A stretch of 64,000 bases of DNA from Trypanosoma brucei (taxonomy: Eukaryota). The notes under the pieces are model-generated. The model searched no databases. It had not been told where the DNA came from and saw only the letters and a list, made by a program, of their open reading frames with translations. The translations under genes and the position numbers were made by a program. Location: assembly GCA_000002445.1 (NCBI GenBank), contig CP000071.1:1120001-1184000 (forward strand), in the 5' to 3' direction. The stretch's first letter is position 1. Every line of letters starts with the position of its first letter. Shown one piece after another: positions 30,494-48,634 of this stretch.

Positions 30494-31768
30494 TCACAGC
30501 GCTGCAGTCACGCGCCAAATACGTACGATATTATCATCACCGCCCGACGCTAACAACAAACCTTCGCCACCTCGACTGTTGTCACCCCAAAGCTCGTTGG
30601 TGGAACGACTGAAAGCAACCGTGTTTACGTCCGCCTCGTGCGCGGAGGGAACCTCCGCGACAACACTCACATGAACCTCTTCGTACCCCCTTGACTGATA
30701 TACACCCAAGAGCGTTACCTTGTTATCACCACTTCCACATGCCACAATAGCTGGCGAGACATCACTACCACTTGGTGCCCAGCCCACAGAATAAATGGTA
30801 CGCTCTGCAAACCCAGAAGCAGTGCACACGGAACGAAAATTACCGTCGCCATCACGACTCCAGAAAGTAACAGTTTTGTCATCCGAGCTGCAACACACCA
30901 CTGGGCTGTACTCCAGTGCAGTGCCCTCCCTCTCTTCCTCCTCCATCTGTAATGAGTCAATGGGCTGCTCAATAGGTTGCACAGCTACTGACCAAACAGT
31001 ACCATCATGCCTTGTCAACGTCTGGTGACAGTACCAGTCGTCCCGCTTATGCGATTCCGTCCATACCTTAACGGTATTATCATACGAACAAGAAAACAGA
31101 AGAGGTTTCTCTACCCCGCCGGATGGAAAAAGCCATGCACACGCCTTAACGTCCTGCGCGTGGCCAGCCAGAACGCCAGCACATTCGAACTCTCCGACGT
31201 CGACACGGTCCCACACCCAAACAGTGCGATCACGTGAGCAAGTAGCCAGAGTGTTGTCTGTCCCCCATGCAGCACATTTGACTTCGTTTTCGTGTCCATC
31301 AAGAATAGCCTCTAACTCGAATTCAAAGCAGTTCGGATCGTCCGATACTCGTCTCCATACGCTTGCCGTACGGTCAAAGGAAGCACACGCGATAAACGTA
31401 CCGCTGGGGCTCCACGAAACGTGACGCACAGTCCGGCTATGCTCACCTTCTAAGGTATAGATACAGCTCCATGTTCCATTTTGGTCCCTTCCGTTTGGGA
31501 TCTCCTCACGACCAACATTCAACATGTAACCCCACAGTCGTACAGTTCCATCACCAGAGCAAGACGCCACAACATTAGCCGTGGGGCACCACGCCACACA
31601 CCAAATGCGGTCGGTATGGTCTCTGAGAGTGCAAACGGGCTCTACACGAAGGAGAGGTGGAGCCTCGTACGGCAGATATAAGGGCCGCATGTGGTTATCA
31701 GAGGTGCCACCGGCCCGGAGGACCCGAGCATCCACATGCTCCATCCACGAGAAATAACTAGACAACAT
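30494..31768 (-). CDS. CIA1: Cytosolic iron-sulfur assembly protein CIA1/CIAO1 (WD40)
   Basis: 424-aa ORF with seven WD40-like units. Several blocks match CIAO1 almost residue for residue: HSRTVRHVSWSPSGTFIACASFDRTASVW, FEFELEAILDGHENEVKCAAWGTDNTLATCSRDRTVWVWDRVDVGEFECAGVLAGHAQDVK, SCSYDNTVKVW, DDWYC and HDGTVWSV. Confidence 0.85.
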   Translation of the reverse strand: MLSSYFSWMEHVDARVLRAGGTSDNHMRPLYLPYEAPPLLRVEPVCTLRDHTDRIWCVAWCPTANVVASCSGDGTVRLWGYMLNVGREEIPNGRDQNGTWSCIYTLEGEHSRTVRHVSWSPSGTFIACASFDRTASVWRRVSDDPNCFEFELEAILDGHENEVKCAAWGTDNTLATCSRDRTVWVWDRVDVGEFECAGVLAGHAQDVKACAWLFPSGGVEKPLLFSCSYDNTVKVWTESHKRDDWYCHQTLTRHDGTVWSVAVQPIEQPIDSLQMEEEEREGTALEYSPVVCCSSDDKTVTFWSRDGDGNFRSVCTASGFAERTIYSVGWAPSGSDVSPAIVACGSGDNKVTLLGVYQSRGYEEVHVSVVAEVPSAHEADVNTVAFSRSTNELWGDNSRGGEGLLLASGGDDNIVRIWRVTAAL

Positions 31769-32104: not shown

Positions 32105-35100
32105 CTATTCACTGTCCTCAAACTGAAACGACCTTACGGAAACATCAACACCGGAGGCATAAAGTTTTGCCTTGTTTTTCTGTTTCAATTTATTAAAGCT
32201 CTTCCCTTTCACACGCATCATTTCCTGGTTTTGACGCAACGCCATATGCTCAGCTTTGGGCCCATTATCCCTCAGATCATTACTAGCGAACGCCACCTTC
32301 GTGGGATCAATACGTTGAAATGGCCGACGGACACTCCCAGATCCACGAACAGAAAAATCATCGCACTTCCCAACCACTGGTTGCTTCCTGTCTCTTCGAT
32401 ACGAATCGACAGCTTCAACACGTGGCACCTTCCTCAAAATTTCCTCACTCTCACCTTCATAATGTGATAGAGACCTCTTTCTACCGGTCACCCCAAAATC
32501 TTCCACAACATCAGAAGAGCTCTCAGGTGCCACCGGTTTCTTCACCGCAGCGTTGCTCTTGGGTGAACTATTGGCTTTCACCAATGGTTTCCGAACGGGT
32601 TCATCATCATCAGAAGAGCTGTCAGGTGCCACCGGTTTCTTCACTGCAGCGTTGCTCTTGGGTGAACTATTGGCCTTTACCAGTGGTTTCCGAACGGGTT
32701 CATCATCATCATCAGAAGAGCTGTCAGGTGCCACCGGTTTCTTCACTGCAGCGTTGCTCTTGGGTGAACTATTGGCTTTCACCAGTGGTTTCCGAACGGG
32801 TTCATCATCATCATCAGAAGAGCTCTCAGGTGCCACCGGTTTCTTCACTGCAGCGTTGCTCTTGGGTGAACTATTGGCTTTCACCAATGGTTTCCGAACG
32901 GGTTCATCATCATCATCAGAAGAGCTCTCAGGTGCCACCGGTTTCTTCACTGCAGCGTTGCTCTTGGGTGAACTATTGGCTTTCACCAATGGTTTCCGAA
33001 CGGGTTCATCATCATCATCAGAAGAGCTCTCAGATGCCACCGGTTTCTTCACTGCAGCGTTGCTCTTGGGTGAACTATTGGCTTTCACCAATGGTTTCCG
33101 AACGGGTTCATCATCATCATCAGAAGAGCTGTCAGGTGCCACCGGTTTCTTCACTGCAGCGTTGCTCTTGGGTGAACTATTGGCTTTCACCAATGGTTTC
33201 CGAACGGGTTCATCATCATCATCAGAAGAGCTGTCAGGTGCCACCGGTTTCTTCACTGCAGCGTTGCTCTTGGGTGAACTATTGGCTTTCAGCAGTGGTT
33301 TCCGAACGGGTTCATCATCATCATCAGAAGAGCTGTCAGGTGCCACCGGTTTCTTCACTGCAGCGTTGCTCTTGGGTGAACTATTGGCCTTTACCAGTGG
33401 TTTCCGAACGGGTTCATCATCATCATCAGAAGAGCTGTCAGGTGCCACCGGTTTCTTCACTGCAGCGTTGCTCTTGGGTGAACTATTGGCTTTCACCAGT
33501 GGTTTCCGAACGGGTTCATCATCATCATCAGAAGAGCTCTCAGGTGCCACCGGTTTCTTCACTGCAGCGTTGCTCTTGGGTGAACTATTGGCCTTTACCA
33601 GTGGTTTCCGAACGGGTTCATCATCATCATCAGAAGAGCTGTCAGGTGCCACCGGTTTCTTCACTGCAGCGTTGCTCTTGGGTGAACTATTGGCTTTCAC
33701 CAGTGGTTTCCGAACGGGTTCATCATCATCATCAGAAGAGCTCTCAGATGCCACCGGTTTCTTCACTGCAGCGTTGCTCTTGGGTGAACTATTGGCTTTC
33801 AGCAGTGGTTTCCGAACGGGTTCATCATCATCATCAGAAGAGCTCTCAGGTGCCACCGGTTTCTTCACTGCAGCGTTGCTCTTGGGTGAACTATTGGCTT
33901 TCACCAATGGTTTCCGAACGGGTTCATCATCATCAGAAGAGCTCTCAGGTGCCACCGGTTTCTTCACTGCAGCGTTGCTCTTGGGTGAACTATTGGCTTT
34001 CACCAATGGTTTCCGAACGGGTTCATCATCATCATCAGAAGAGCTCTCAGGTGCCACCGGTTTCTTCACTGCAGCGTTGCTCTTGGGTGAACTATTGGCT
34101 TTCACCAATGGTTTCCGAACGGGTTCATCATCATCATCAGAAGAGCTGTCAGGTGCCACCGGTTTCTTCACTGCAGCGTTGCTCTTGGGTGAACTATTGG
34201 CTTTCACCAATGGTTTCCGAACGGGTTCATCATCATCATCAGAAGAGCTGTCAGGTGCCACCGGTTTCTTCACTGCAGCGTTGCTCTTGGGTGAACTATT
34301 GGCTTTCACCAATGGTTTCCGAACGGGTTCATCATCATCATCAGAAGAGCTGTCAGGTGCCACCGGTTTCTTCACTGCAGCGTTGCTCTTGGGTGAACTA
34401 TTGGCTTTCAGCAGTGGTTTCCGAACGGGTTCATCATCATCATCAGAAGAGCTGTCAGGTGCCACCGGTTTCTTCACTGCAGCGTTGCTCTTGGGTGAAC
34501 TATTGGCCTTTACCAGTGGTTTCCGAACGGGTTCATCATCATCATCAGAAGAGCTGTCAGGTGCCACCGGTTTCTTCACTGCAGCGTTGCTCTTGGGTGA
34601 ACTATTGGCTTTCACCAATGGTTTCCGAACGGGTTCATCATCATCAGAAGAGCTGTCAGGTGCCACCGGTTTCTTCACTGCAGCGTTGCTCTTGGGTGAA
34701 CTATTGGCTTTCAGCAGTGGTTTCCGAACGGGTTCATCATCATCAGAAGAGCTGTCAGGTGCCACCGGTTTCTTCACTGCAGCGTTGCTCTTGGGTGAAC
34801 TATTGGCCTTTACCAGTGGTTTCCGAACGGGTTCATCATCATCATCAGAAGAGCTGTCAGGTGCCACCGGTTTCTTCACTGCAGCGTTGCTCTTGGGTGA
34901 ACTATTGGCTTTCACCAATGGTTTCCGAACGGGTTCATCATCATCAGAAGAGCTGTCAGGTGCCACCGGTTTCTTCACTGCAGCGTTGCTCTTGGGTGAA
35001 CTATTGGCTTTCAGCAGTGGTTTCCGAACGGGTTCATCATCATCAGAAGAGCTGTCAGGTGCCACCGGTTTCTTCACTGCAGCGTTGCTCTTGGGTGAAC

Positions 35101-35722
35101 TATTGGCCTTTACCAATGGTTTCCGAACGGGTTCATCATCATCAGAAGAGCTGTCAGGTGCCACCGGTTTCTTCACTGCAGCGTTGCTCTTGGGTGAACT
35201 ATTGGCTTTCACCAATGGTTTCCGAACGGGTTCATCATCATCATCAGAAGAGCTGTCAGGTGCCACCGGTTTCTTCACTGCAGCGTTGCTCTTGGGTGAA
35301 CTATTGGCTTTCACCAATGGTTTCCGAACGGGTTCATCATCATCATCAGAAGAGCTCTCAGGTGCCACCGGTTTCTTCGGTGTTACTTTACCTTTATTCT
35401 CGATGTCTTTTGCTTTTCTTTTGTTTTCTGATGTCTCAGTGCGCGCTTTCTTTCGAGCCTGTTCACTTTTTTTCACGTCACAGTCTTCAGCTATTCTTTT
35501 TCCTAGGAGTTTGTAAAGAGGTTCATTTTCTTCGTCGGTATGAACGGAGGTTTCCTGATTGTTGTATAATCGCACGGCATCTTCAATGATTGCTCCACTC
35601 GCGTTATTCTGGTTTTTTTCTTGATGATTCTGCAGCGGAACTCTGTTTTTGAATGCCTCGGCAGCGCTAGGACATGTGGCTTCAAGGTACCTCAAAACGA
35701 CTTCCTCGACAGTAACTGGCAT
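32105..35722 (-). CDS. NOPP140: Nopp140-family nucleolar phosphoprotein (LisH-like N-terminus, alternating acidic-Ser and basic repeats, SRP40 C-terminal domain)
   Basis: 1205-aa ORF. The N-terminus MPVTVEEVVLRYLEATCPSAAEAFK is LisH-like, as in Nopp140. About 28 tandem 34-35-aa units KPVAP[D/E]SSSDDD(D)EPVRKPL[V/L]KANSSPKSNAAVK alternate an acidic CK2-site-rich block with a basic block. The C-terminus FQRIDPTKVAFASNDLRDN...MRVKGKSFNKLKQKNKAKLYASGVDVSVRSFQFED fits the SRP40_C signature. Confidence 0.8.
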   Translation of the reverse strand: MPVTVEEVVLRYLEATCPSAAEAFKNRVPLQNHQEKNQNNASGAIIEDAVRLYNNQETSVHTDEENEPLYKLLGKRIAEDCDVKKSEQARKKARTETSENKRKAKDIENKGKVTPKKPVAPESSSDDDDEPVRKPLVKANSSPKSNAAVKKPVAPDSSSDDDDEPVRKPLVKANSSPKSNAAVKKPVAPDSSSDDDEPVRKPLVKANSSPKSNAAVKKPVAPDSSSDDDEPVRKPLLKANSSPKSNAAVKKPVAPDSSSDDDEPVRKPLVKANSSPKSNAAVKKPVAPDSSSDDDDEPVRKPLVKANSSPKSNAAVKKPVAPDSSSDDDEPVRKPLLKANSSPKSNAAVKKPVAPDSSSDDDEPVRKPLVKANSSPKSNAAVKKPVAPDSSSDDDDEPVRKPLVKANSSPKSNAAVKKPVAPDSSSDDDDEPVRKPLLKANSSPKSNAAVKKPVAPDSSSDDDDEPVRKPLVKANSSPKSNAAVKKPVAPDSSSDDDDEPVRKPLVKANSSPKSNAAVKKPVAPDSSSDDDDEPVRKPLVKANSSPKSNAAVKKPVAPESSSDDDDEPVRKPLVKANSSPKSNAAVKKPVAPESSSDDDEPVRKPLVKANSSPKSNAAVKKPVAPESSSDDDDEPVRKPLLKANSSPKSNAAVKKPVASESSSDDDDEPVRKPLVKANSSPKSNAAVKKPVAPDSSSDDDDEPVRKPLVKANSSPKSNAAVKKPVAPESSSDDDDEPVRKPLVKANSSPKSNAAVKKPVAPDSSSDDDDEPVRKPLVKANSSPKSNAAVKKPVAPDSSSDDDDEPVRKPLLKANSSPKSNAAVKKPVAPDSSSDDDDEPVRKPLVKANSSPKSNAAVKKPVAPDSSSDDDDEPVRKPLVKANSSPKSNAAVKKPVASESSSDDDDEPVRKPLVKANSSPKSNAAVKKPVAPESSSDDDDEPVRKPLVKANSSPKSNAAVKKPVAPESSSDDDDEPVRKPLVKANSSPKSNAAVKKPVAPDSSSDDDDEPVRKPLVKANSSPKSNAAVKKPVAPDSSSDDDEPVRKPLVKANSSPKSNAAVKKPVAPESSSDVVEDFGVTGRKRSLSHYEGESEEILRKVPRVEAVDSYRRDRKQPVVGKCDDFSVRGSGSVRRPFQRIDPTKVAFASNDLRDNGPKAEHMALRQNQEMMRVKGKSFNKLKQKNKAKLYASGVDVSVRSFQFEDSE
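32497..35400 (-). repeat. Tandem array of about 28 near-identical 102/105-bp coding repeats inside the Nopp140-like CDS
   Basis: The plus-strand unit ...ctcaggtgccaccggtttcttcactgcagcgttgctcttgggtgaactattggctttcaccaatggtttccgaacgggttcatcatcatca(tca)gaagag... recurs head-to-tail with only a few SNP or 3-bp indel differences (D/E, V/L, DDD/DDDD, T/S). The opposite-strand ORFs of 1089 and 987 aa are a by-product of this periodicity. Confidence 0.9.
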
Positions 35723-37695: not shown

Positions 37696-38421
37696 CTATT
37701 TCATAATTCTGCACCACGGATATCCTTGTTTCTTCATTTGATGTTGATGCTGGCTTAACATGCAACCAATAACAATGTAGAAGAAAACATCTGCAATGGT
37801 TTTAAGGGATTCATCGTTCAGTAGACAAGCCAGACAACTGCACAAATAGGCACACCAAATGATGACCGAATCACAACAATCATTTTGCAAATTGTAGTGC
37901 TTACGAATAATGAAACGATTACCGTAAACTGCACACGCAAGGCAAAAGCAAGACTCCAGGCACAAACAGCACGGCTCACAGCCTTCGCAGACACAGCACC
38001 TACTTCCACAAAACATTCCAGCACAGCACAAATAACGAGACCAATCATTTTCCAACAGCTTCTTCCGTTGCAAGAACGCACAGCACCATGGGCAACAACA
38101 GGCACCAAGGCAGAACAGTGGCTCACTGCAAGGTGCCCCCAACATACTCGTTTCCCATTCGTTCTCCCCTTCCCACTTTTGTGCCCCACCGTAGGGGACC
38201 GATAATAACCCTTCAGCTGACTCGTCTAGGTTCCCCCTATTATGCAACTTACCGTAAGCAGCTGGTGGCACGTAAACACCATATAGAAATTGATCGTCCA
38301 TGGCGGTAGGCGGTGTTTTCCAGCCAGCATCGGGCGGCAGAGAAGCGGGCTGTTTTCCATTATCTGTGGGAGGCCCAGCCAGCACATTTAAGGCTGGGGA
38401 ACAATCCCGCCCAGCGCACAT
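37696..38421 (-). CDS. PLAC8 (Cys-rich, CCxxxCPxC) domain protein, array copy 1 (divergent, no PPPPAGYGQ repeats)
   Basis: The listed ORF 37696..38646 starts inside a polypyrimidine tract (FSCFPVLLFYRW...FLFPFIIF). The first Met after the tract and AG is MCAGRDCSPALNVLAGPP.. (start 38421), giving 241 aa. The PLAC8 signature is FCLGACCCPWCCAFLQ...CCVCEGCEPCCLCLESCFCL...NLQNDCCDSVIIWCAYLCSCLACLLNDESL. Differences from copies 2 and 3 are a distinct linker (..KQPASLPPDAGWKTPP..), MFCGSRCC vs LCGDRNCC, AVYGNRFIIRK vs AAHGNRFMVLQ, and the C-terminus ..YPWCRIMK vs ..YPREQTME. Confidence 0.75.
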   Translation of the reverse strand: MCAGRDCSPALNVLAGPPTDNGKQPASLPPDAGWKTPPTAMDDQFLYGVYVPPAAYGKLHNRGNLDESAEGLLSVPYGGAQKWEGENEWETSMLGAPCSEPLFCLGACCCPWCCAFLQRKKLLENDWSRYLCCAGMFCGSRCCVCEGCEPCCLCLESCFCLACAVYGNRFIIRKHYNLQNDCCDSVIIWCAYLCSCLACLLNDESLKTIADVFFYIVIGCMLSQHQHQMKKQGYPWCRIMK

Positions 38422-38440
38422 ACTTTCTTTCGGAGCACCA

Positions 38441-38492
38441 CTGTTGAGAAATATAATAAAAGGAAACAAGAACAGCAGCAAACAAACAACAC
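38441..38492 (-). promoter_or_regulatory. Polypyrimidine tract plus AG: candidate spliced-leader trans-splice acceptor for PLAC8 copy 1 (identical elements at about 41067-41118 and 43828-43879 for copies 2 and 3)
   Basis: The minus strand reads ..ttgtttgtttgctgctgttcttgtttccttttattatatttctcaacag, then about 19 nt, then ATG. This is the classic kinetoplastid polyY-AG arrangement, repeated identically before each array copy. Confidence 0.45.
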
Positions 38493-40255
38493 TATGGAAA
38501 TATTTTGCGCTGTACACGGGACACGGATACCTGACAATTGGAGGCCATCTGTAAAAAAGTAAGACAGGAAAGCAACTAAATGCTACATGTATCACATAAA
38601 CACTCATTTTCTCAACTGTTGCGTCCAAGCTCGCCCGTCCATGCACTACCAGTACTACCCGTCTCTCAAACTAAACACTTTCACACTCATATTTCACCCG
38701 CTCGCGAAGTATTGTCGCTTCAAACATCTACTACGACTGCCCGCATACAATCCACCGGTTGAGGATCTATTACAATAAATGACGCGGCCACACTCATTTG
38801 TAGAGGAGAGCCACATTGGGTTAAAATCTAAACAGAAAGACCAAAAATTAGCGTTACAGAAAAAGAGATAGCGAGTAGAACAGCACAACAGCCTCTCACT
38901 TAGCGAGAAACACACGCACTTGGATAAAAGATAGTGCACACAAATATAACACAATCCTTCCCGACTAGCAACCAGCCATGAACAAGATCTCGCATCCATT
39001 AGCCAACACTTTGCACTTTAAAAGCGATATATCCAACCATGACGCAGGGATAACCGTCAAAATGTCGAACTTTATCTGCTGAGTGACCTTTACATCCACC
39101 CGCGCACTTCAAGTAACCGTCATCATTTGCTCTTTTTGTTTTACCAACCTCCTTCAGAATCAGAAACCCTATGACACGGAATAACCTTCCCCCACCCACA
39201 CACACATACGACTCCAATTGTAACAGCAGAGTAGAATGATCCTCAGATGTCTTTAGCCTCCGACGCAAAACATTCCGAGAGAAAAGTAACGCGCCACTTA
39301 AACTCGAAGCATCGGTACCTCGGTAGTCACACATACCCACATACCTCATTACAACAAAATACATGCAAGCCACAACGAATTGTCTGCAAGAACTGCGATA
39401 CAAGTCTCACTTCAAGTAATTACTAGAGACTGCTCAGGAAACTAAAGGGATACGGTAACGCATTACCATATTCATTCGAAATAGTCCATAGTCATACACA
39501 CCTCAGGGGGAAATAAAAAAGCACAACTCTCGTGAAACTTGAAACAGTAACCAATACGAAGCAGGGGAATACCCCAATTTTCTAAGTATTGTACTCCTTC
39601 CCTGTTGTCCTAGTTGCTAAATAATAAATTTGGAAGAAAAAGAGCCAAGTACCATATCATATCTCACTTAGCTATGGTCATAAAGTGAAAAATTGTGGCT
39701 CATTAAAGCGTAGAAAAACTTATTCCCAAGTATCCAGGAACAATATTGTTAGTTAGTGTCTTTTCGTTGAAGAATACAACATCTACACGTGCCACTGTTT
39801 AATTCCCTCTGAGAGCAAACATAACGAAGCAAAAGAAAACCTTTATAAAACACTAATTTGCCGCATGCAAGTCAAACCCTGCGCGATACCGCAAAGGCAC
39901 TCATCACCTTATGCGTGTGTCGTACTGTATTATTATGATAGTTTACCCTCCACACACAACAATAGCCTGTACCATTTAGTTCATTTGTTTTTATCAGCAA
40001 AGTCACTGAAAACACGCCCACACACACGCACCACTGCCACAGGAGCAATTATAGAGCAACGATTATGACAGCATGCAGCACGACTACAGTAGTGGAGCAT
40101 AGGTCAGTGCAAGCAAAACATTCAGGTGAGGGCGCACTAACAAAGAAAACGAAAAACAGGAGGCACGAAACACCCGAATGACCATGTAAATACCGACGAA
40201 AGAAATGATGGTAATATCATGTTTTACAGAGAAATCAACCCCCGTTGAACATCAA

Positions 40256-41047
40256 CTATTCCATTGTTTGCTCTCTTGGATATCCTTGTTTCTTCATTTG
40301 ATGTTGATGCTGGCTTAACATGCAACCAATAACAATGTAGAAGAAAACATCTGCAATGGTTTTAAGGGATTCATCGTTCAGTAGACAAGCCAGACAACTG
40401 CACAAATAGGCACACCAAATGATGACCGAATCACAACAATCATTTTGCAAATTGTAGTGCTGAAGAACCATGAAACGATTACCGTGAGCGGCACAGGGGA
40501 GGCAAAAGCAAGACTCCAGGCACAAACAGCACGGCTCACAGCCTTCGCAGACACAGCAATTCCTGTCGCCACAAAGTCCAGCACAACACAAATAACGAGA
40601 CCAATCATTTTCCAACAGCTTCTTCCGTTGCAAGAACGCACAGCACCATGGGCAACAACAGGCACCAAGGCAGAACAGTGGCTCACTGCAAGGTGCCCCC
40701 AACATACTCGTTTCCCATTCGTTCTCCCCTTCCCACTTTTGCACTTCAGCATAGTCATCCGGTGGTTTGTAAACGCCACACGGCGGTTGACCATATCCGG
40801 CAGGTGGTGGGGGTTGACCATATCCGGCAGGTGGTGGGGGTTGACCATATCCGGCAGGTGGTGGGGGCTGACCATATCCGGCAGGTGGTGGGGGTTGACC
40901 ATATCCGGCAGGTGGTGGGGGTTGACCATATCCGGCAGGTGGTGGGGGTTGACCATATCCGGCAGGTGGTGGGGGCTGTTTTCCATTATCTGTGGGAGGC
41001 CCAGCCAGCACATTTAAGGCTGGGGAACAATCCCGCCCAGCGCACAT
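40256..41047 (-). CDS. PLAC8 domain protein, array copy 2, with 7 x PPPPAGYGQ N-terminal repeats
   Basis: Same architecture as copy 1. Start at MCAGRDCSPALNVLAGPPTDNGKQ, then (PPPPAGYGQ)x7, PPCGVYKPPDDYAEVQKWEGENEWE, then the PLAC8 Cys-rich core. About 263 aa. The upstream polypyrimidine tract plus AG is identical to copy 1. Confidence 0.75.
   Translation of the reverse strand: MCAGRDCSPALNVLAGPPTDNGKQPPPPAGYGQPPPPAGYGQPPPPAGYGQPPPPAGYGQPPPPAGYGQPPPPAGYGQPPPPAGYGQPPCGVYKPPDDYAEVQKWEGENEWETSMLGAPCSEPLFCLGACCCPWCCAFLQRKKLLENDWSRYLCCAGLCGDRNCCVCEGCEPCCLCLESCFCLPCAAHGNRFMVLQHYNLQNDCCDSVIIWCAYLCSCLACLLNDESLKTIADVFFYIVIGCMLSQHQHQMKKQGYPREQTME
40784..40976 (-). repeat. 27-bp coding minisatellite (ggttgaccatatccggcaggtggtggg)n, about 7 copies, encoding (PPPPAGYGQ)n on the minus strand
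   Basis: Perfect 27-mers with only a g/c wobble (gggggttgacc vs gggggctgacc). They lie in-frame within PLAC8 copy 2. Confidence 0.9.
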
Positions 41048-42881
41048 ACTTTCTTTCGGAGCACCACTGTTGAGAAATATAATAAAAGGAAACAAGAACA
41101 GCAGCAAACAAACAACACTATGGAAATATTTTGCGCTGTACACGGGACACGGATACCTGACAATTGGAGGCCATCTGTAAAAAAGTAAGACAGGAAAGCA
41201 ACTAAATGCTACATGTATCACATAAACACTCATTTTCTCAACTGTTGCGTCCAAGCTCGCCCGTCCATGCACTACCAGTACTACCCGTCTCTCAAACTAA
41301 ACACTTTCACACTCATATTTCACCCGCTCGCGAAGTATTGTCGCTTCAAACATCTACTACGACTGCCCGCATACAATCCACCGGTTGAGGATCTATTACA
41401 ATAAATGACGCGGCCACACTCATTTGTAGAGGAGAGCCACATTGGGTTAAAATCTAAACAGAAAGACCAAAAATTAGCGTTACAGAAAAAGAGATAGCGA
41501 GTAGAACAGCACAACAGCCTCTCACTTAGCGAGAAACACACGCACTTGGATAAAAGATAGTGCACACAAATATAACACAATCCTTCCCGACTAGCAACCA
41601 GCCATGAACAAGATCTCGCATCCATTAGCCAACACTTTGCACTTTAAAAGCGATATATCCAACCATGACGCAGGGATAACCGTCAAAATGTCGAACTTTA
41701 TCTGCTGAGTGACCTTTACATCCACCCGCGCACTTCAAGTAACCGTCATCATTTGCTCTTTTTGTTTTACCAACCTCCTTCAGAATCAGAAACCCTATGA
41801 CACGGAATAACCTTCCCCCACCCACACACACATACGACTCCAATTGTAACAGCAGAGTAGAATGATCCTTAGATGTCTTTAGCCTCCGACGCAAAACATT
41901 CCGAGAGAAAAGTAACGCGCCACTTAAACTCGAAGCATCGGTACCTCGGTAGTCACACATACCCACATACCTCATTACAACAAAATACATGCAAGCCACA
42001 ACGAATTGTCTGCAAGAACTGCGATACAAGTCTCACTTCAAGTAATTACTAGAGACTGCTCAGGAAACTAAAGGGATACGGTAACGCATTACCATATTCA
42101 TTCGAAATAGTCCATAGTCATACACACCTCAGGGGGAAATAAAAAAGCACAACTCTCGTGAAACTTGAAACAGTAACCAATACGAAGCAGGGGAATACCC
42201 CAATTTTCTAAGTATTGTACTCCTTCCCTGTTGTCCTAGTTGCTAAATAATAAATTTGGAAGAAAAAGAGCCAAGTACCATATCATATCTCACTTAGCTA
42301 TGGTCATAAAGTGAAAAATTGTGGCTCATTAAAGCGTAGAAAAACTTATTCCCAAGTATCCAGGAACAATATTGTTAGTTAGTGTCTTTTCGTTGAAGAA
42401 TACAACATCTACACGTGCCACTGTTTAATTCCCTCTGAGAGCAAACATAACGAAGCAAAAGAAAACCTTTATAAAACACTAATTTGCCGCATGCAAGTCA
42501 AACCCTGCGCGATACCGCAAAGGCACTCATCACCTTATGCGTGTGTCGTACTGTATTATTATGATAGTTTACCCTCCACACACAACAATAGCCTGTACCA
42601 TTTAGTTCATTTGTTTTTATCAGCAAAGTCACTGAAAACACGCCCACACACACGCACCACTGCCACAGGAGCAATTATAGAGCAACGATTATGACAGCAT
42701 GCAGCACGACTACAGTAGTGGAGCATAGGTCAGTGCAAGCAAAACATTCAGGTGAGGGCGCACTAACAAAGAAAACGAAAAACAGGAGGCACGAAACACC
42801 CGAATGACCATGTAAATACCGACGAAAGAAATGATGGTAATATCATGTTTTACAGAGAAATCAACCCCCGTTGAACATCAA

Positions 42882-43808
42882 CTATTCCATTGTTTGCTCT
42901 CTTGGATATCCTTGTTTCTTCATTTGATGTTGATGCTGGCTTAACATGCAACCAATAACAATGTAGAAGAAAACATCTGCAATGGTTTTAAGGGATTCAT
43001 CGTTCAGTAGACAAGCCAGACAACTGCACAAATAGGCACACCAAATGATGACCGAATCACAACAATCATTTTGCAAATTGTAGTGCTGAAGAACCATGAA
43101 ACGATTACCGTGAGCGGCACAGGGGAGGCAAAAGCAAGACTCCAGGCACAAACAGCACGGCTCACAGCCTTCGCAGACACAGCAATTCCTGTCGCCACAA
43201 AGTCCAGCACAACACAAATAACGAGACCAATCATTTTCCAACAGCTTCTTCCGTTGCAAGAACGCACAGCACCATGGGCAACAACAGGCACCAAGGCAGA
43301 ACAGTGGCTCACTGCAAGGTGCCCCCAACATACTCGTTTCCCATTCGTTCTCCCCTTCCCACTTTTGCACTTCAGCATAGTCATCCGGTGGTTTGTAAAC
43401 GCCACACGGCGGTTGACCATATCCGGCAGGTGGTGGGGGTTGACCATATCCGGCAGGTGGTGGGGGCTGACCATATCCGGCAGGTGGTGGGGGTTGACCA
43501 TATCCGGCAGGTGGTGGGGGCTGACCATATCCGGCAGGTGGTGGGGGTTGACCATATCCGGCAGGTGGTGGGGGTTGACCATATCCGGCAGGTGGTGGGG
43601 GTTGACCATATCCGGCAGGTGGTGGGGGCTGACCATATCCGGCAGGTGGTGGGGGTTGACCATATCCGGCAGGTGGTGGGGGTTGACCATATCCGGCAGG
43701 TGGTGGGGGTTGACCATATCCGGCAGGTGGTGGGGGCTGTTTTCCATTATCTGTGGGAGGCCCAGCCAGCACATTTAAGGCTGGGGAACAATCCCGCCCA
43801 GCGCACAT
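42882..43808 (-). CDS. PLAC8 domain protein, array copy 3, with 12 x PPPPAGYGQ N-terminal repeats
   Basis: Identical to copy 2 except for 12 rather than 7 nonapeptide repeats; about 308 aa. Confidence 0.75.
   Translation of the reverse strand: MCAGRDCSPALNVLAGPPTDNGKQPPPPAGYGQPPPPAGYGQPPPPAGYGQPPPPAGYGQPPPPAGYGQPPPPAGYGQPPPPAGYGQPPPPAGYGQPPPPAGYGQPPPPAGYGQPPPPAGYGQPPPPAGYGQPPCGVYKPPDDYAEVQKWEGENEWETSMLGAPCSEPLFCLGACCCPWCCAFLQRKKLLENDWSRYLCCAGLCGDRNCCVCEGCEPCCLCLESCFCLPCAAHGNRFMVLQHYNLQNDCCDSVIIWCAYLCSCLACLLNDESLKTIADVFFYIVIGCMLSQHQHQMKKQGYPREQTME
43410..43737 (-). repeat. 27-bp coding minisatellite, about 12 copies, in PLAC8 copy 3
   Basis: Same 27-mer as in copy 2, with 12 copies in copy 3. 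Confidence 0.9.
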
Positions 43809-44484
43809 ACTTTCTTTCGGAGCACCACTGTTGAGAAATATAATAAAAGGAAACAAGAACAGCAGCAAACAAACAACACTATGGAAATATTTTGCGCTGT
43901 ACACGGGACACGGATACCTGACAATTGGAGGCCATCTGTAAAAAAGTAAGACAGGAAAGCAACTAAATGCTACATGTATCACATAAACACTCATTTTCTC
44001 AACTGTTGCGTCCAAGCTCGCCCGTCCATGCACTACCAGTACTACCCGTCTCTCAAACTAAACACTTTCACACTCATATTTCACCCGCTCGCGAAGTATT
44101 GTCGCTTCAAACATCTACTACGACTGCCCGCATACAATCCACCGGTTGAGGATCTATTACAATAAATGACGCGGCCACACTCATTTGTAGAGGAGAGCCA
44201 CATTGGGTTAAAATCTAAACAGAAAGACCAAAAATTAGCGTTACAGAAAAAGAGATAGCGAGTAGAACAGCACAACAGCTTCTCACTTAGCGAGAAACAC
44301 ACGCACTTAGGAAAACAAATGTTAGGCATGAAACTGAAAAAAAAAGAAACTCGAGGAGATGGAAGAAGGAAAAGACAACAGTCAATTTTCATCCACTGGA
44401 TACTAATAAACCAAAAAAGATGGTAATAATCTATAATGGAGTCACATTCACTTGCAGTGAAAGCGAGTGCACGTGCCAACTCAT

Positions 44485-45522
44485 TTAAATATGTTTTGCG
44501 ACGGCATTGTATATCATCTCGTGTACTTTCTCACGACTATAGCGTTCGCCCTCGTCGTTACAACATTCTATTTGAACCCAATTCCTTTGGTTCTGACAGC
44601 ACCAAACGTAAGTTTGCCTGACATTTTCCTTGTAGGAGAGGCCAGCCGTCTCATGAATGTCCAGCGACTCACGCTTCTCATCCCTTTGCATCGCCACTAG
44701 CGCGGCTGCGGGTGGCAAATCAAGATAAAGAGCGACATCCGGGGGAGGAAGCTTAAGCCATTCCAATTCCAATTGCTCAAGGTGTCTGATGAAGTCACTC
44801 CTTTCACTTTCCTCAAGCTTAGAGGCCTGGTGACCAAAGTTGGACGTGTAGTAACGGTCGAGGAGAATCTTCTTCCCGTGTGTCAACCAGTACCTGAGTT
44901 CCGGGAGAGTGTCAAAGCGATTCAAGGAAAAAAGCAAACTGAACAGTTTAGGATCCAAATCGTGTAAAGCGCCTCTTTCACCTGATAGGACTTTGCGAAT
45001 GAGCTTCCCATATCGATGTTTGTCCGATGGGAAGTCAAGACTAGCGTGAGCCTTTCCTTCCTTATCCAGCCGTTTCCGCATGTACTCTGTTTGGGTGGCC
45101 TTCCCGGCACCGTCTCCACCCTCAAAAACAATTACGGCACTTTCTGAGTTATTGTTGGGCAAGAATGCTCTTACAGCATCGGCCCATGTCTCTGAAGTAT
45201 TTTGTTTGCACTCGATACCGAGGGAGGAAATCGTCTCAAGTAAGTTAGTGGTTTCGCCACCAGTGGTAAGCGAAAGTACGGGAACACGCTTTGAATAAAC
45301 AGCAAATACGACATCTGCATCCTCCACTGTCTTTTCAGTAATAAAACACATGGGGGTACCAACCCTGTAAGGCGTGTGTTTCCCTCGCCACATAAATTCG
45401 TAAGCGAAAGACTTTTCGAGCTGTATAGTTTCCGCATCACCCGCTACCTCTCTGATCACCTCAAGGACTTGTTTGTCCTCAACATCCGTGAAAACTACAA
45501 TTTTTCGGTTCACGGCCACCAT
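44485..45522 (-). CDS. TMPK: Thymidylate kinase (dTMP kinase) with ~140-aa N-terminal extension
   Basis: The C-terminal half carries TMPK motifs: P-loop IVFEGGDGAGKATQ, the DRY motif ILLDRYYTSN, and a lid/LID-like region. The N-terminal ~140 aa (MVAVNRKIVVFTDVEDK...) has no kinase motifs. The ORF call extends to 45567 (MLGFPFFFLLTKY...), but those first 15 codons look like translated polyY tract, so the Met at 45522 is preferred. Confidence 0.78.
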   Translation of the reverse strand: MVAVNRKIVVFTDVEDKQVLEVIREVAGDAETIQLEKSFAYEFMWRGKHTPYRVGTPMCFITEKTVEDADVVFAVYSKRVPVLSLTTGGETTNLLETISSLGIECKQNTSETWADAVRAFLPNNNSESAVIVFEGGDGAGKATQTEYMRKRLDKEGKAHASLDFPSDKHRYGKLIRKVLSGERGALHDLDPKLFSLLFSLNRFDTLPELRYWLTHGKKILLDRYYTSNFGHQASKLEESERSDFIRHLEQLELEWLKLPPPDVALYLDLPPAAALVAMQRDEKRESLDIHETAGLSYKENVRQTYVWCCQNQRNWVQIECCNDEGERYSREKVHEMIYNAVAKHI

Positions 45523-45682
45523 TGATGTATACTTCGTGAGAAGAAAAAAAAAGGGAAAACCTAGCAACTATTATGCTCAGTCGCAAAAAAAAAAAGCCAG
45601 CTCAGGCGGCGCCTCCTCCTCTTCATGTGCGGGAAACAAAACTGAGAAAACAAAACTTACACGGTTTATATGGCTTACGCAA

Positions 45683-48634
45683 CTACTTTAATTTATACCA
45701 CTGATGCCGGCACTGAGCGGCACTACGTCGCACCATCCGCTTGTGATCACTCAATGCCACCTGAGACACATGAAGAACTTCGTCTCTTACCTGCAACGCG
45801 CTGCTCATGTAGGAGTTGCCGCTGTCACCATTCTCTGATGAAAACTGCATGACAAACAAGGCTGCCTCACTCAATAGACGCAGCGAGGTACACCGCACCT
45901 TAAGTAATGGTGATCTAACACCACTCAGCACCAGTGGCAGAAGGTCGTCGGTTCCTAAAAGTGCCTCTACCAACACATTCTTCGGGTCCATCTGAGACAA
46001 AGCAAGGTCGAGCAGCTCCACAAGCTCGTTGACAAACTCTTCATTCAGTGGCTTCGACACTCTTCGGGAAAATTCGACGATGTCACCCCACTCCAACCCA
46101 CAAGTGGGTGACACATCCTGGAGGAGTTTTGCAACAACTCTCAGCAACTCGAGTGAAACGGGTTTGCTGCCCCTCGTGGCAGCATGCACCAGAGGCAAAA
46201 TGAGGGTCGTGGTTTTTCTGCACCCTTGATAACAGAACACGAACACTCCCGTCAGTATATCAACGTAACAATCCTGTACGTATCCACTGCGAAGGGAGTT
46301 GGTAATTTCTTCGATGATTAGTTCAATAATCCCGCCTTCTGCCACACCACAAGCAAGCAGACCACGAGCAACAGCTGCCCGCGCCGCGAGCTGCGTGGTT
46401 GGGTTCAACCGCTTCGCTGCTTCGAGAAAGCGACCTGCGACACCGGGCACCCGCGCACACAGTGATGACACACTCTGCATTGTTAATACATCTGTCGGTG
46501 TGCTGCGCACTGCATCCAAAACTTCGCACATCCAATGTTCTATGTGATCCGAAACACCCAGGACATCCATGTCAAAACATGAAACTAGAGAAGCTGTCAA
46601 TACACCCCATTGCTCTCCCCCCACCTCCTGAAGCACAGATGGAACGAAAGCAATGGGAAGCAGCAGGAGCAAATCGCACAGATAGTCAAAGCTTGCCACA
46701 GAATTCCTCTTTTTGGTCAAAAGCAGAAGGCAACGAATATCTTCGGTAGAGTAGTCCGCGTGCGCAGAGAGACTGGAGCGACACAAGGAAAAAACATCCC
46801 TTTCGGTAAGGGTAAATCCGAACAAACCTTCTGGACATTCTAACAGTGATTTTGTGGCAGCTAGTGATAAAGAGGCCTGCGACCCTAACAAGCCTTTGTA
46901 GAGTGTAAGAATACCGGCTGCTGTGGGATTTATGTCAGCAGGCATGTCCAACAGCGCAACATTCAGTAAATTTCCTTCGACAGAGCCAATGCGTGAGATA
47001 TGCTTCACAACCCTGTTGCCGACTTCCTCATCTCCACAGAGACAAAGTGCTATAAGTCTCTTGTAGATGAGTAGAACTGTGTCATCGGGCATCCAGTGTG
47101 GAAGCCATGCTGCAAGGGTAACCAGCGATGCAAGCAACTCGCACCTTACATGCACAGAAGATGCGTCAGCCTTTTGCAGTGACAAGGTCAACTTCTCCAC
47201 AAGTTGAAACAATTTCTCACTCACGGTTTCGAGACCTTCTTTAACATCACGCTGTGGGGGCGGCCTCTTTCCACATTCGCCACCATTACCCGCATCGAAA
47301 ATCCCACTAAGTATGGCGGAAATGATGAGGACCGCATCGTCGACTTCAAAACTATCCTCCCGCGTATTCGACAGTAGCTGCAGCAAAAAGCACTGCACAG
47401 TGGCCGCACCGCAACATGTGCTACTGCTGACAAGGTGATAGAACATAGTTGCATAGGCGGAACACACAGCTGGTCCCGACCTCAAACTAGCCAGTGCGCC
47501 ACTCGTCATTGGCTCTAGCCACGAGCGGACGATTGATAACGAAACATCCTGCGCTCTTTTGGAGATGAACTTCAATACGTGTACGCAGTCCTTAACGTAC
47601 GGCTCACATTCCCCAGACCCGAGTGATACTGCTCGGACGACTTCGTTCCTTATGTGATTTGTCACAGAAACCACATGCGGGCACAAACTCTCGGTGGTGT
47701 GACTCGAATCCAACGAGAAAATGTTTAAAAGCGCATTCGTGGATTCCTGCTTAACAACAGAGGATGGGGACGCCATTCTTGACAACAGAAATGGGACACA
47801 AATGTTCAAATACAAGGGATGCGTCATGCATGCCGACAGGACACGCCGCAAATCCTCTTTCGACACCTTACATCCGGGTGGTTGTGAAAATACCACCGGG
47901 AAATAACTAGAAATACTGTCAAAATACTCCTCCAGCAAGGGTTGCATGGCATCTTCTCTCGCATAAGAGGCAATTATGTGATGTAACTCAAGCGCACGCA
48001 TTAGTAACTCCGGTTCATTTTCCTCATCCATAGATTTTAGGACAACTTGAAGAAAGGGGGTGGTGAACCACGTTGCGGTCTCTTTTGTAACAGTAAAGCG
48101 AAGAACGTCGTACCCCCAACTCCGGACGTTGGTCGGGAGGGCTTGCAAACTGAAGCTCTGCAAAAACTCAGTGTGTAAAACGTTGAAAACGTCACTGGTA
48201 CATGGCCCCTCTGATGACAGCTCTCTGACAAGAAGGGCCGTAGATTCCACAGCAACCGCGATCGTTTGCATTGAAGAGAGCTTTCTGGAGAAAAACCTCA
48301 GCATAACATCGACCTCTTCAATTGTGCGGTCGCGCCGATTCACTGTAGCAAGCCCCAGAACACGGACTGCATTTACAACGTGCTCTTCTCCTGTGAGGTA
48401 TTTACCCATCATGCGCGATAATTGCAGAAGAGGGATTTCGCGAAGCTTTTCAAGCGCCACTTCATCAGCGTTAGTCCCGCACGTAACAACACCTTGAAGT
48501 AATGTATCAACTTCCTCAACAGACATACTACTTTTTCGATATATATTCTTTACTCGTCCTATTCTTGGTTTCTTCAAGTTTTCTTCTACTGACAACCAGT
48601 TTTCAGGCGATAGGCAACCGTAAAGTGACTGCAA
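45683..48634 (-). CDS. MMS19: MMS19-like HEAT/ARM-repeat protein (CIA targeting complex component), tentative
   Basis: 983-aa all-helical Leu/Ala-rich ORF. The N-terminal region EEYFDSISSYFPVVFSQPPGCKVSKEDLRRVLSACMTHPLYLNICVPFLLSRMASPSSVVKQESTNALLNIF aligns by eye with the human MMS19 N-domain block FEVTSCYFPIDFTPPPNDPHGIQREDLILSLRAVLASTP.FAEFLLPLLIEKVDS..LSAKLDSLQTLNAC. Size matches MMS19 (~1000 aa). The start codon is uncertain (a possible later Met is MSVEEVDTLLQGVV). Confidence 0.6.
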   Translation of the reverse strand: MQSLYGCLSPENWLSVEENLKKPRIGRVKNIYRKSSMSVEEVDTLLQGVVTCGTNADEVALEKLREIPLLQLSRMMGKYLTGEEHVVNAVRVLGLATVNRRDRTIEEVDVMLRFFSRKLSSMQTIAVAVESTALLVRELSSEGPCTSDVFNVLHTEFLQSFSLQALPTNVRSWGYDVLRFTVTKETATWFTTPFLQVVLKSMDEENEPELLMRALELHHIIASYAREDAMQPLLEEYFDSISSYFPVVFSQPPGCKVSKEDLRRVLSACMTHPLYLNICVPFLLSRMASPSSVVKQESTNALLNIFSLDSSHTTESLCPHVVSVTNHIRNEVVRAVSLGSGECEPYVKDCVHVLKFISKRAQDVSLSIVRSWLEPMTSGALASLRSGPAVCSAYATMFYHLVSSSTCCGAATVQCFLLQLLSNTREDSFEVDDAVLIISAILSGIFDAGNGGECGKRPPPQRDVKEGLETVSEKLFQLVEKLTLSLQKADASSVHVRCELLASLVTLAAWLPHWMPDDTVLLIYKRLIALCLCGDEEVGNRVVKHISRIGSVEGNLLNVALLDMPADINPTAAGILTLYKGLLGSQASLSLAATKSLLECPEGLFGFTLTERDVFSLCRSSLSAHADYSTEDIRCLLLLTKKRNSVASFDYLCDLLLLLPIAFVPSVLQEVGGEQWGVLTASLVSCFDMDVLGVSDHIEHWMCEVLDAVRSTPTDVLTMQSVSSLCARVPGVAGRFLEAAKRLNPTTQLAARAAVARGLLACGVAEGGIIELIIEEITNSLRSGYVQDCYVDILTGVFVFCYQGCRKTTTLILPLVHAATRGSKPVSLELLRVVAKLLQDVSPTCGLEWGDIVEFSRRVSKPLNEEFVNELVELLDLALSQMDPKNVLVEALLGTDDLLPLVLSGVRSPLLKVRCTSLRLLSEAALFVMQFSSENGDSGNSYMSSALQVRDEVLHVSQVALSDHKRMVRRSAAQCRHQWYKLK

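What the first reader, a model, noticed from the sequence alone, without database searches (positions are those of the whole stretch)
32105..35722. Nopp140-type gene with about 28 almost sequence-identical 102/105-bp repeats, unusually homogeneous and long
Nopp140/SRP40 proteins normally carry about 10 degenerate alternating acidic/basic stretches. Here about 28 units are nearly identical at the nucleotide level (only D/E, V/L, T/S and DDD/DDDD variants), implying very recent amplification or ongoing gene conversion. The LisH-like N-terminus and SRP40_C tail are intact, so this is a bona fide Nopp140-type gene rather than the truncated Nopp140-like paralogue. About 2.9 kb of perfect periodicity is an obvious assembly-collapse hazard, so the true repeat number may differ. 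Each unit carries an SSSDDDDE casein-kinase-2 consensus, predicting extreme phosphorylation.
Basis: partly seen in the sequence, partly recalled or inferred. Interest (0 to 1): 0.6.

Follow-up and report, generated by a model that had tools for sequence, protein, structure and literature searches.

The report
Trypanosome Nopp140 gene with homogenised repeats
This is the already annotated Trypanosoma brucei nucleolar phosphoprotein gene Tb927.8.3870 (NOP127, the Nopp140/SRP40 orthologue); its 28 near-identical 33/34-residue repeats are real, but they are an ordinary case of concerted evolution seen across the genus.

Summary
ORF 32105-35722 (minus strand, 1205 aa, 127.7 kDa) carries 28 full units plus a partial 29th. 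Units are 99 or 102 bp, not 102/105. They differ at 7 SNP columns and one GAT indel. The amino-acid variants are D/E, V/L, P/S (not T/S) and DDD/DDDD.

Pfam SRP40_C matches the tail (E 4.8e-15). A LisH motif is not detected by Pfam and is only weakly supported by profile and structure comparison.

Exact neighbour matches place the window on T. brucei TREU927 chromosome 8. The gene is Tb927.8.3870, "Nucleolar protein 127", already shown to be nucleolar. A canonical TbNopp140 was described in 2006 and is most probably this gene.

Homogeneity is not peculiar to this gene copy. T. cruzi (8 to about 11 units), T. melophagium, T. theileri and T. grayi have arrays 97-99% identical within a species but 64-90% identical between species. 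Unit number is 22, 28 and 29 in three T. brucei-group assemblies, with lineage-private variants spread over many units.

The assembly hazard is real: five other assemblies break or gap at or within this array, and three more carry frameshifts in it.

Verdict: a correct reading of a known gene. Low interest.

The parts
32105..35722 (-). Complete coding sequence of the Nopp140/SRP40 orthologue (Tb927.8.3870, NOP127): 1205 aa, 127.7 kDa, stop codon at 32105-32107
   Evidence: ORF list. Molecular weight matches the published naming 'Nucleolar Protein of XXX kDa'. The start codon is confirmed by alignment of the N-terminus with orthologues.
35378..35722 (-). Unique N-terminal region, aa 1-115. It contains the conserved motif aa 4-28 (35639-35713, TVEEVVLRYLEATCPSAAEAFKNRV; LisH-like, unproven) and a third predicted helix at aa 43-56.
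   Evidence: Y12, L13, P18 and A21 are invariant among 8 trypanosomatid N-termini. AF2 predicts helices at 5-16, 18-27 and 43-56, with pLDDT 73-79 over the first 20 residues. hhalign to the LIS1 LisH is in register at P 0.0008. There is no Pfam LisH hit.
32543..35377 (-). 28 complete tandem units of 99 bp (7 units) or 102 bp (21 units). Consensus: KKPVAPDSSSDDDDEPVRKPLVKANSSPKSNAAV. Each unit has one acidic CK2-type serine cluster and Lys/Pro-rich basic flanks.
   Evidence: TRF. Unit parsing and variant table. Block duplications: 464 bp exact at an offset of 11 units and 382 bp exact at an offset of 3 units.
32510..32542 (-). Partial 29th unit (KKPVAPESSSD), at the junction with the unique C-terminal region
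   Evidence: The T. equiperdum OVI contig L001 begins 2 nt into this partial unit.
32108..32509 (-). Unique C-terminal region, aa 1072-1205
   Evidence: Relatives are found with this region.
32120..32323 (-). SRP40_C domain (PF05022), aa 1134-1201
   Evidence: Pfam E 4.8e-15, 56.6 bits against a cut-off of 28.6, covering profile positions 1-76 of 76.

Best explanation
This is the single-copy Trypanosoma brucei orthologue of the nucleolar phosphoprotein Nopp140/SRP40 (NOLC1 family), annotated as Tb927.8.3870 or NOP127.

Architecture (shown):
- a short conserved helical N-terminus;
- an intrinsically disordered central domain of 28-29 copies of a 33/34-residue unit, each pairing one acidic SSSDDD(D)E cluster with Lys/Pro-rich basic stretches;
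- an SRP40_C tail.

Function (inferred from the family and from published trypanosome work):
- About 87 serines lie in CK2 consensus, close to the roughly 80 CK2 phosphoserines of human Nopp140.
- When phosphorylated they would turn the array into a multivalent polyanion/polycation scaffold.
- That scaffold would concentrate snoRNPs and RNA polymerase I machinery in the nucleolus.

Evolution of the array (shown by comparison):
- The array evolves by concerted evolution. Unequal sister-chromatid or homologue exchange and gene conversion duplicate and delete single units and multi-unit blocks.
- Units therefore stay 97-99% identical within a genome, while the unit sequence drifts between species and the unit number drifts between strains.
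- The unit length of 33-34 aa and the acidic-cluster/basic-spacer layout are kept by selection; the exact sequence is not.
For: Identity of the gene:
- Neighbours are exact matches to TREU927 proteins AAZ13149-51. CIA1 = Tb927.8.3860 and MMS19 = Tb927.8.3920 bracket the gene.
- Tb927.8.3870 is listed as 'Nucleolar protein 127'. The NOP names are defined by kDa and the computed mass is 127.7 kDa.

Family:
- SRP40_C at E 4.8e-15.
- The same tripartite layout appears in short relatives.
- There is one SRP40_C gene per genome, in conserved synteny.

Function, from the literature:
- The review PMC8311968 states that TbNopp140 is strictly nucleolar, phosphorylated, and co-immunoprecipitates with Pol I (citing Kelly et al. 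2006).
- About 80 CK2 serines are reported for human Nopp140 (PMC8336889 abstract).
- Nopp140 drives multivalent condensation of snoRNPs (PMC12951762 abstract).

Concerted evolution:
- Unit nucleotide identity is 97-99.3% within species and 64-90% between species.
- 62 of 62 units have their nearest neighbour in their own species.
- No unit sequence is shared between TREU927 and DAL972 or IVM-t1.
- The extra GAT codon is in 21/28 TREU927 units and 0/51 others. The V-to-A change is in 11/22 DAL972 units and 11/29 IVM-t1 units but 0/28 TREU927 units.
- Exact multi-unit block duplications are present.
- Unit counts: 28, 22 and 29 in three T. brucei-group assemblies; 8 versus about 11 in T. cruzi strains.
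Against: - Phosphorylation, snoRNP binding and condensate behaviour of this protein were not and cannot be tested here.
- The paper that defined TbNopp140 (Kelly et al. 2006) could not be read. Equating it with Tb927.8.3870 rests on SRP40_C being single-copy and syntenic, not on a stated gene ID.
- Zhou et al. 2018 treated NOP127 as a new nucleolar protein and did not equate it with Nopp140.
- Unit counts come from assemblies of differing quality. IVM-t1 has frameshifts, DAL972 is a Sanger assembly, and none could be checked against reads.
- The T. vivax orthologue has no recognisable units, so the array is not indispensable in every lineage.
Confidence: 0.88

Rival explanations
1. The array length and near-identity are largely an assembly artefact. 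Reads from a shorter or more heterogeneous repeat would have been mis-joined or over-expanded, so the 28 units are not real.
For: The locus is demonstrably hard to assemble:
- The T. equiperdum OVI contig ends 2 nt into the last partial unit, and the T. rangeli contig ends inside the array.
- T. theileri and T. grayi have N-gaps of 625 and 159 bases inside it, and one T. cruzi assembly has 4324 Ns across the region.
- IVM-t1, T. cruzi Brazil A4 and T. melophagium carry frameshifts.
- A proteomics table groups Tb927.8.3870 with Tb11.v5.0681.1. From my own knowledge of TriTrypDB IDs, that suggests a second, unplaced copy in TREU927.
Against: - Three independent T. brucei-group assemblies made with different technologies all give long arrays of 22, 28 and 29 units.
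- The TREU927 units form a non-periodic 'barcode' of 14 distinct unit types. The longest exact internal repeat is 464 bp, which Sanger reads and clone ends can bridge.
- The reading frame is intact across all 2.9 kb.
- The published name NOP127 is derived from this predicted model, so it gives no independent check on size.
Confidence: 0.07
2. The homogeneity reflects one very recent burst of amplification in T. brucei from a short ancestral array, not long-term homogenisation. There would be no continuing turnover.
For: - T. brucei-group arrays (22-29 units) are several times longer than those of T. cruzi (8-11), T. melophagium (about 8) and Leishmaniinae (2-5). Net expansion on the T. brucei branch therefore did occur.
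- Multi-unit exact block duplications are visible.
Against: - Equally homogeneous arrays (97-99% within species) exist in four other Trypanosoma species whose unit sequences differ by 10-36% from each other. That requires repeated homogenisation in each lineage.
- Within the T. brucei group, different variants have spread over many units in different lineages, and the unit number differs. This shows turnover since these very close lineages split.
Confidence: 0.05

Closest known systems
TbNopp140, the canonical Nopp140 of Trypanosoma brucei (Kelly et al. 2006, Eukaryot Cell 5:876; cited in PMC8311968), and NOP127 / Tb927.8.3870 (Zhou et al. 2018, PMC6144804)
   Same: Same organism and same protein class. 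NOP127 is this gene, by gene order, by annotation and by the 127.7 kDa mass. It is nucleolar. TbNopp140 is described as the canonical, SRP40_C-type homologue: nucleolar, phosphorylated and bound to Pol I.
   Different: I could not read Kelly et al. to confirm the gene ID. In the text held here, Zhou et al. do not link NOP127 to Nopp140.
Mammalian Nopp140 (NOLC1) and yeast Srp40
   Same: Both share the SRP40_C tail, a disordered central domain of alternating acidic serine clusters and basic stretches, and a similar number of CK2-type serines (about 87 here, about 80 reported for human). There is a short helical N-terminus at the position of the metazoan LisH motif.
   Different: The mammalian protein has about 10 long, degenerate acidic/basic pairs encoded by several exons. 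Here there are 28-29 short units, 97% or more identical, in one exon. The LisH motif is not detectable by Pfam. T. brucei reportedly lacks coilin and Cajal bodies, and the protein is strictly nucleolar.
Drosophila melanogaster Nopp140 repeat-length polymorphism (Baral and DiMario, bioRxiv 10.1101/513978)
   Same: The unit is of about the same size (96 bp there, 99/102 bp here). It lies in the single exon that encodes the central domain, it varies in copy number between alleles, and its patterns are poorly conserved between species.
   Different: Drosophila varies between 2 and 3 copies of one pattern inside a degenerate domain. In T. brucei the whole central domain is one homogeneous array of 22-29 copies.
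Near-perfect tandem-repeat proteins of trypanosomatids in general (for example PMC13309793)
   Same: These are long arrays of near-identical coding units, attributed to unequal crossing-over and concerted evolution, and predicted to be disordered.
   Different: That literature concentrates on surface, antigen and cytoskeletal proteins. Here the array is the functional core of a conserved nucleolar chaperone.
TbNoLP, the Nopp140-like protein of T. brucei (Kelly et al. 2006)
   Same: It is reported to be a second Nopp140 homologue that is phosphorylated and associated with Pol I.
   Different: From my own recollection of Kelly et al., NoLP lacks the SRP40_C tail, whereas this gene has it. No second acidic-serine ORF lies in this window.

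Membership tests
Nopp140 / SRP40 (NOLC1) family | C-terminal SRP40_C domain (Pfam PF05022) | tested here: met
   E 4.8e-15, 56.6 bits against a gathering cut-off of 28.6, aa 1134-1201, full profile coverage 1-76/76.
Nopp140 / SRP40 (NOLC1) family | Large central low-complexity domain of alternating acidic serine clusters (CK2 consensus) and basic Lys/Pro/Ala stretches | tested here: met
   28 full units plus one partial unit, each with SSSDDD(D)E flanked by KKPVAP and PVRKPLVK...SPKS. There are 90 S/T-x-x-D/E matches. Composition: S 15.9%, K 13.9%, P 12.4%, D 11.6%.
Nopp140 / SRP40 (NOLC1) family | N-terminal LisH dimerisation motif (a metazoan Nopp140 feature) | tested here: inconclusive
   - No Pfam LisH hit at E up to 10 for this protein, for 8 aligned N-termini, or for 14 relatives.
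- No LisH chain in PDB sequence searches.
- hhalign of the 16-sequence N-terminal profile against the LIS1 LisH is in register, with P 0.0008 and probability 25%. Against human NOLC1 it gives P 0.47.
- AF2 predicts a helix-turn-helix at 5-16 and 18-27.
- The top Foldseek hit is the TBL1 LisH domain, but at E = 5, which is not significant.
Nopp140 / SRP40 (NOLC1) family | Nucleolar localisation | not testable with these tools
   Literature only. NOP127 localises to the nucleolus in interphase (PMC6144804). TbNopp140 is described as strictly nucleolar (PMC8311968).
Nopp140 / SRP40 (NOLC1) family | Extensive CK2 phosphorylation, and association with snoRNPs and RNA polymerase I | not testable with these tools
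   Only the consensus sites are shown here. The review states that TbNopp140 is phosphorylated and co-immunoprecipitates with Pol I.
Trypanosomatid SRP40_C orthologue group | Single copy per genome, with conserved gene order (SRP40_C gene, then CIAO1, then PSP1) | tested here: met
   The same order is found in T. b. gambiense, T. b. equiperdum, T. cruzi (4 assemblies), T. theileri, T. grayi, T. vivax, T. melophagium and T. rangeli. There is one SRP40_C hit per species in the protein searches.
TbNoLP (Nopp140-like protein) | Lacks the SRP40_C tail (from my recollection of Kelly et al. 2006) | tested here: not met
   This gene has a full SRP40_C domain, so it is not the NoLP paralogue.
AAA_26 (PF13500) P-loop NTPase-like domain | A genuine single-domain match with a nucleotide-binding P-loop | tested here: not met
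   The whole protein scores 78.7 bits over 4 stretches, all within the repeats. Three units alone score 17.6 bits, below the cut-off of 27. There is no Walker A motif. The hit is an additive artefact of the repeat.

The most novel reading that the evidence does not exclude
The three- to ten-fold expansion of the unit array on the T. brucei branch (22-29 units, against 8-11 in T. cruzi and 2-5 in Leishmaniinae) would be adaptive rather than neutral drift. It would raise the valency of the protein to about 87 CK2-type serines, matching mammalian Nopp140. That valency would let one scaffold hold snoRNPs in the nucleolus of an organism without coilin or Cajal bodies. Strain-to-strain copy-number differences would then tune nucleolar condensate properties or ribosome output.
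Probability: 0.1. Interest if true: 0.5.

Novelty: already known. Interest (0 to 1): 0.2.

Why it matters
It matters little beyond housekeeping. The gene is annotated, its product has been localised, and near-perfect coding repeats kept alike by concerted evolution are a familiar feature of trypanosomatid genomes. Four practical by-products are useful:

1. Tb927.8.3870/NOP127 should be read as the Nopp140/SRP40 orthologue.
2. Many annotated 'Srp40' or hypothetical models in other Trypanosoma genomes are truncated at an internal methionine, because their assemblies break in this array.
3. The 99/102-bp coding minisatellite differs in unit number and unit 'barcode' between T. brucei lineages. 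It could serve as a typing marker, or as a test case for long-read assembly quality.
4. The natural series of 0, 2-5, 8-11 and 22-29 units in one orthologue offers a ready-made valency series for anyone studying how Nopp140 repeats drive nucleolar condensation.

Tried and rejected
- The whole-protein homology search was swamped by low-complexity hits (RRM and acidic proteins) and was uninformative. Searching with the repeat-free N- and C-termini worked.
- The exact 1205-aa sequence is not in the protein collection, so no TREU927 locus could be fetched for self-comparison.
- Kelly et al. 2006 is not held.
- My first guess that the gene ID was Tb927.8.7xx was wrong. Tb927.8.750 and .760 are NOPP44/46, located elsewhere.
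- LisH tests by Pfam and by PDB sequence search were negative. Foldseek on a low-confidence model was not significant.
- T. congolense could not be reached: its CIAO1 protein has no contig on record.
- Rfam found nothing in the window.
- The Pfam AAA_26 hit was considered and rejected as a repeat artefact.
- The plus-strand ORFs of 1089 and 987 aa were rejected as mirror frames of the repeat.
- Supplementary tables of PMC6144804 are not held.
Full report
**Observation**

The minus-strand ORF 32105..35722 encodes 1205 aa. Tandem Repeats Finder reports one array at 32509..35378, with period 102, 28.3 copies, 97% matches and score 5292.

I parsed the translation at the KKPVA motif. This gives 28 complete units and a truncated 29th, KKPVAPESSSD. 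Units are 102 bp (21 units) or 99 bp (7 units), not 102/105 bp.

At the nucleotide level the 28 units differ at only seven columns, plus the presence or absence of one GAT codon. The amino-acid variants are D/E, V/L, P/S and DDD/DDDD. Four SNP columns are synonymous.

The two long plus-strand ORFs (1089 and 987 aa) are stop-free mirror frames of the repeat, not genes.

**Where the window comes from**

Three neighbouring ORFs are exact matches to T. brucei brucei TREU927 proteins AAZ13149-AAZ13151. All sizeable ORFs lie on the minus strand, as expected for a trypanosomatid polycistron.

- The neighbour at 30494-31768 is the CIAO1 homologue, TbCIA1 = Tb927.8.3860 (PMC6211773).
- The ORF at 45683-48634 has an MMS19_N domain. 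TbMMS19 is Tb927.8.3920.
- The gene in question is therefore Tb927.8.3870.

A proteomics table lists Tb927.8.3870 as 'Nucleolar protein 127' (PMC9896412). Zhou et al. named their NOP proteins 'Nucleolar Protein of XXX kDa' (PMC6144804). The computed mass of this ORF is 127.7 kDa. NOP127 was localised to the nucleolus and divides into two equal clusters in anaphase.

**Family**

Pfam SRP40_C matches aa 1134-1201 over the full profile, at E 4.8e-15 and 56.6 bits against a cut-off of 28.6.

A search with the repeat-free N- and C-termini found SRP40_C proteins in many trypanosomatids. An exhaustive phmmer search with the tail found 30 representatives of 55-360 aa. The full-length ones share the same three-part layout:
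- a conserved N-terminal motif of the form x-L-V-x-x-Y-L-x-x-x-x-P-x-A-A;
- 2-6 units of about 30-35 aa containing D-S-S-D-D;
- the SRP40_C tail.

[quoted passage not shown] It also states that TbNopp140 is strictly nucleolar. SRP40_C is single-copy and syntenic, so this gene is most probably that TbNopp140. I could not read the original paper to confirm the ID.

**LisH motif**

Pfam does not report a LisH motif for this protein, its orthologues or its more distant relatives, even at E up to 10. HMM searches of PDB sequences find no LisH chain.

Some weaker evidence points the other way:
- A 16-sequence N-terminal profile aligns in register with the LisH motif of LIS1 (hhalign P 0.0008, probability 25%). 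It does not align convincingly with the human NOLC1 N-terminus (P 0.47).
- AlphaFold2 predicts helices at 5-16, 18-27 and 43-56, with moderate confidence over the first 20 residues.
- The top Foldseek hit is the LisH-containing TBL1 domain, but at E = 5, which is not significant.

'LisH-like' is therefore plausible but unproven.

**Pfam AAA_26**

The hit of 78.7 bits is an additive artefact of the repeats. Three units alone give 17.6 bits, and there is no Walker A motif.

**Comparison within the T. brucei group**

I fetched the same locus through the CIAO1 neighbour.

| Assembly | Units | Notes |
|---|---|---|
| T. b. brucei TREU927 (window) | 28 + partial | 99 and 102 bp units |
| T. b. gambiense DAL972 | 22 | all 99 bp; 986-aa protein |
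| T. b. equiperdum IVM-t1 | 29 | several frameshifts |
| T. equiperdum OVI | not assembled | contig stops 2 nt into the last partial unit |

No unit sequence is shared between TREU927 and the other two assemblies. Variant frequencies by lineage:

| Variant | TREU927 | DAL972 | IVM-t1 |
|---|---|---|---|
| Extra GAT codon | 21/28 | 0/22 | 0/29 |
| Column 69 = A (otherwise G) | 22/28 | 0/22 | 0/29 |
| V-to-A change (column 101 = C) | 0/28 | 11/22 | 11/29 |

The unique flanks differ by only 1-2% between these genomes. The TREU927 array also contains exact block duplications: 464 bp at an offset of 11 units and 382 bp at an offset of 3 units. These patterns are what unequal exchange and gene conversion produce.

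**Comparison across the genus**

Synteny (SRP40_C gene, CIAO1, PSP1) holds in T. cruzi, T. theileri, T. grayi, T. vivax, T. melophagium and T. rangeli.

| Species / assembly | Units seen | State of the array |
|---|---|---|
| T. cruzi CL Brener and TCC | 8 | intact 472-aa protein, near-identical 34-aa units |
| T. cruzi Brazil A4 | about 11 | split by a frameshift |
| Another T. cruzi assembly | not assembled | 4324 Ns across the region |
| T. melophagium | about 8 | frameshifts |
| T. theileri | partial | 625-base N-gap inside the array |
| T. grayi | partial | 159-base N-gap inside the array |
| T. rangeli | partial | contig ends inside the array |
| T. vivax | none recognisable | SRP40_C present |

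Mean unit nucleotide identity is 97-99.3% within a species and 64-90% between species. All 62 units tested have their nearest neighbour in their own species. Homogeneity is therefore a long-standing, genus-wide property maintained by concerted evolution. It is not a peculiarity of this copy. What distinguishes the T. brucei group is length.

**Mechanism**

Shown here:
- the three-part architecture;
- 29 SSSD clusters, giving about 87 serines in CK2 consensus;
- the turnover signatures described above.

Inferred from family knowledge and the literature:
- CK2 phosphorylation of these clusters. About 80 such serines target human Nopp140 to Cajal bodies (PMC8336889).
- This would make the array a multivalent scaffold that concentrates snoRNPs and the Pol I machinery in the nucleolus (PMC12951762; PMC8311968).

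A comparable repeat-length polymorphism of a 96-bp unit is known in Drosophila Nopp140. Concerted evolution of near-perfect repeats in trypanosomatid proteins has been discussed generally.

**Verdict**

However, the object is an annotated, experimentally localised T. brucei gene. Its repeat homogeneity is an ordinary outcome of concerted evolution seen in its orthologues. Interest is low. The assembly caveat is justified and well illustrated by other genomes.

Noticed in passing
window 37696-38646, 40256-41272 and 42882-44033 (minus strand): Three tandem paralogous genes, probably Tb927.8.3880-3900. They encode proteins with an identical N-terminus and a cysteine-rich C-terminus, and they carry 0, 7 and 12 copies of a 27-bp repeat encoding PPPPAGYGQ (TRF arrays at 40785-40975 and 43411-43736). 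There is no Pfam hit. The copy number of the short repeat also differs in T. b. equiperdum (L003 3330-3483, about 6 copies).
   Followed up: partly
window 32320-35589 and 32553-35516 (plus strand): ORFs of 1089 aa and 987 aa lie antisense to the repeat array. They are stop-free mirror frames of the repeated unit and have no unique flanks or homologues. A naive ORF caller would report them.
   Followed up: yes
window 32105-35722 (protein aa about 116-1060): Pfam AAA_26 (PF13500) scores 78.7 bits, well above its gathering cut-off of 27, purely by adding weak matches to successive repeat units. Three units alone give 17.6 bits, and there is no Walker A motif. This is a trap for automated annotation.
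   Followed up: yes
L007 2340-3101 (T. vivax contig NLFJ01001086.1): The syntenic T. vivax SRP40_C gene (253 aa; a second representative, P0034, is 228 aa) has no recognisable acidic/basic units and no conserved N-terminal motif. Either the array was lost or degenerated in T. vivax, or the draft model is incomplete.
   Followed up: partly
L004 6718-8495, L005 7009-8657, L006 7327-8465, L008 5054-6462, L009 1-571: Annotated 'Srp40' or hypothetical proteins of T. cruzi Brazil A4, T. theileri, T. grayi, T. melophagium and T. rangeli (138-218 aa) start at the methionine inside the repeat unit (SPAMKPAAKK). The cause is frameshifts, N-gaps or contig ends inside the array. The true genes are longer, as in the intact 472-aa T. 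cruzi CL Brener/TCC model (L011 3187-4605, L012 3188-4606).
   Followed up: yes
window 44485-45567 and 45683-48634 (minus strand): A thymidylate kinase-domain protein (360 aa, with the domain only in the C-terminal half) sits next to TbMMS19 (MMS19_N, E 1e-40). With CIA1 at 30494-31768, two components of the cytosolic Fe-S targeting complex lie within 18 kb on the same strand.
   Followed up: no
Literature: PMC9896412 table and PMC6144804 discussion: Tb927.8.3870 is grouped with Tb11.v5.0681.1 in a proteomics table, which hints at a second, unplaced copy or haplotype in the TREU927 assembly. Zhou et al. 2018 present NOP127 as a new nucleolar protein and compare other NOPs with 'Nopp140' without noting that NOP127 carries the SRP40_C domain.
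   Followed up: partly
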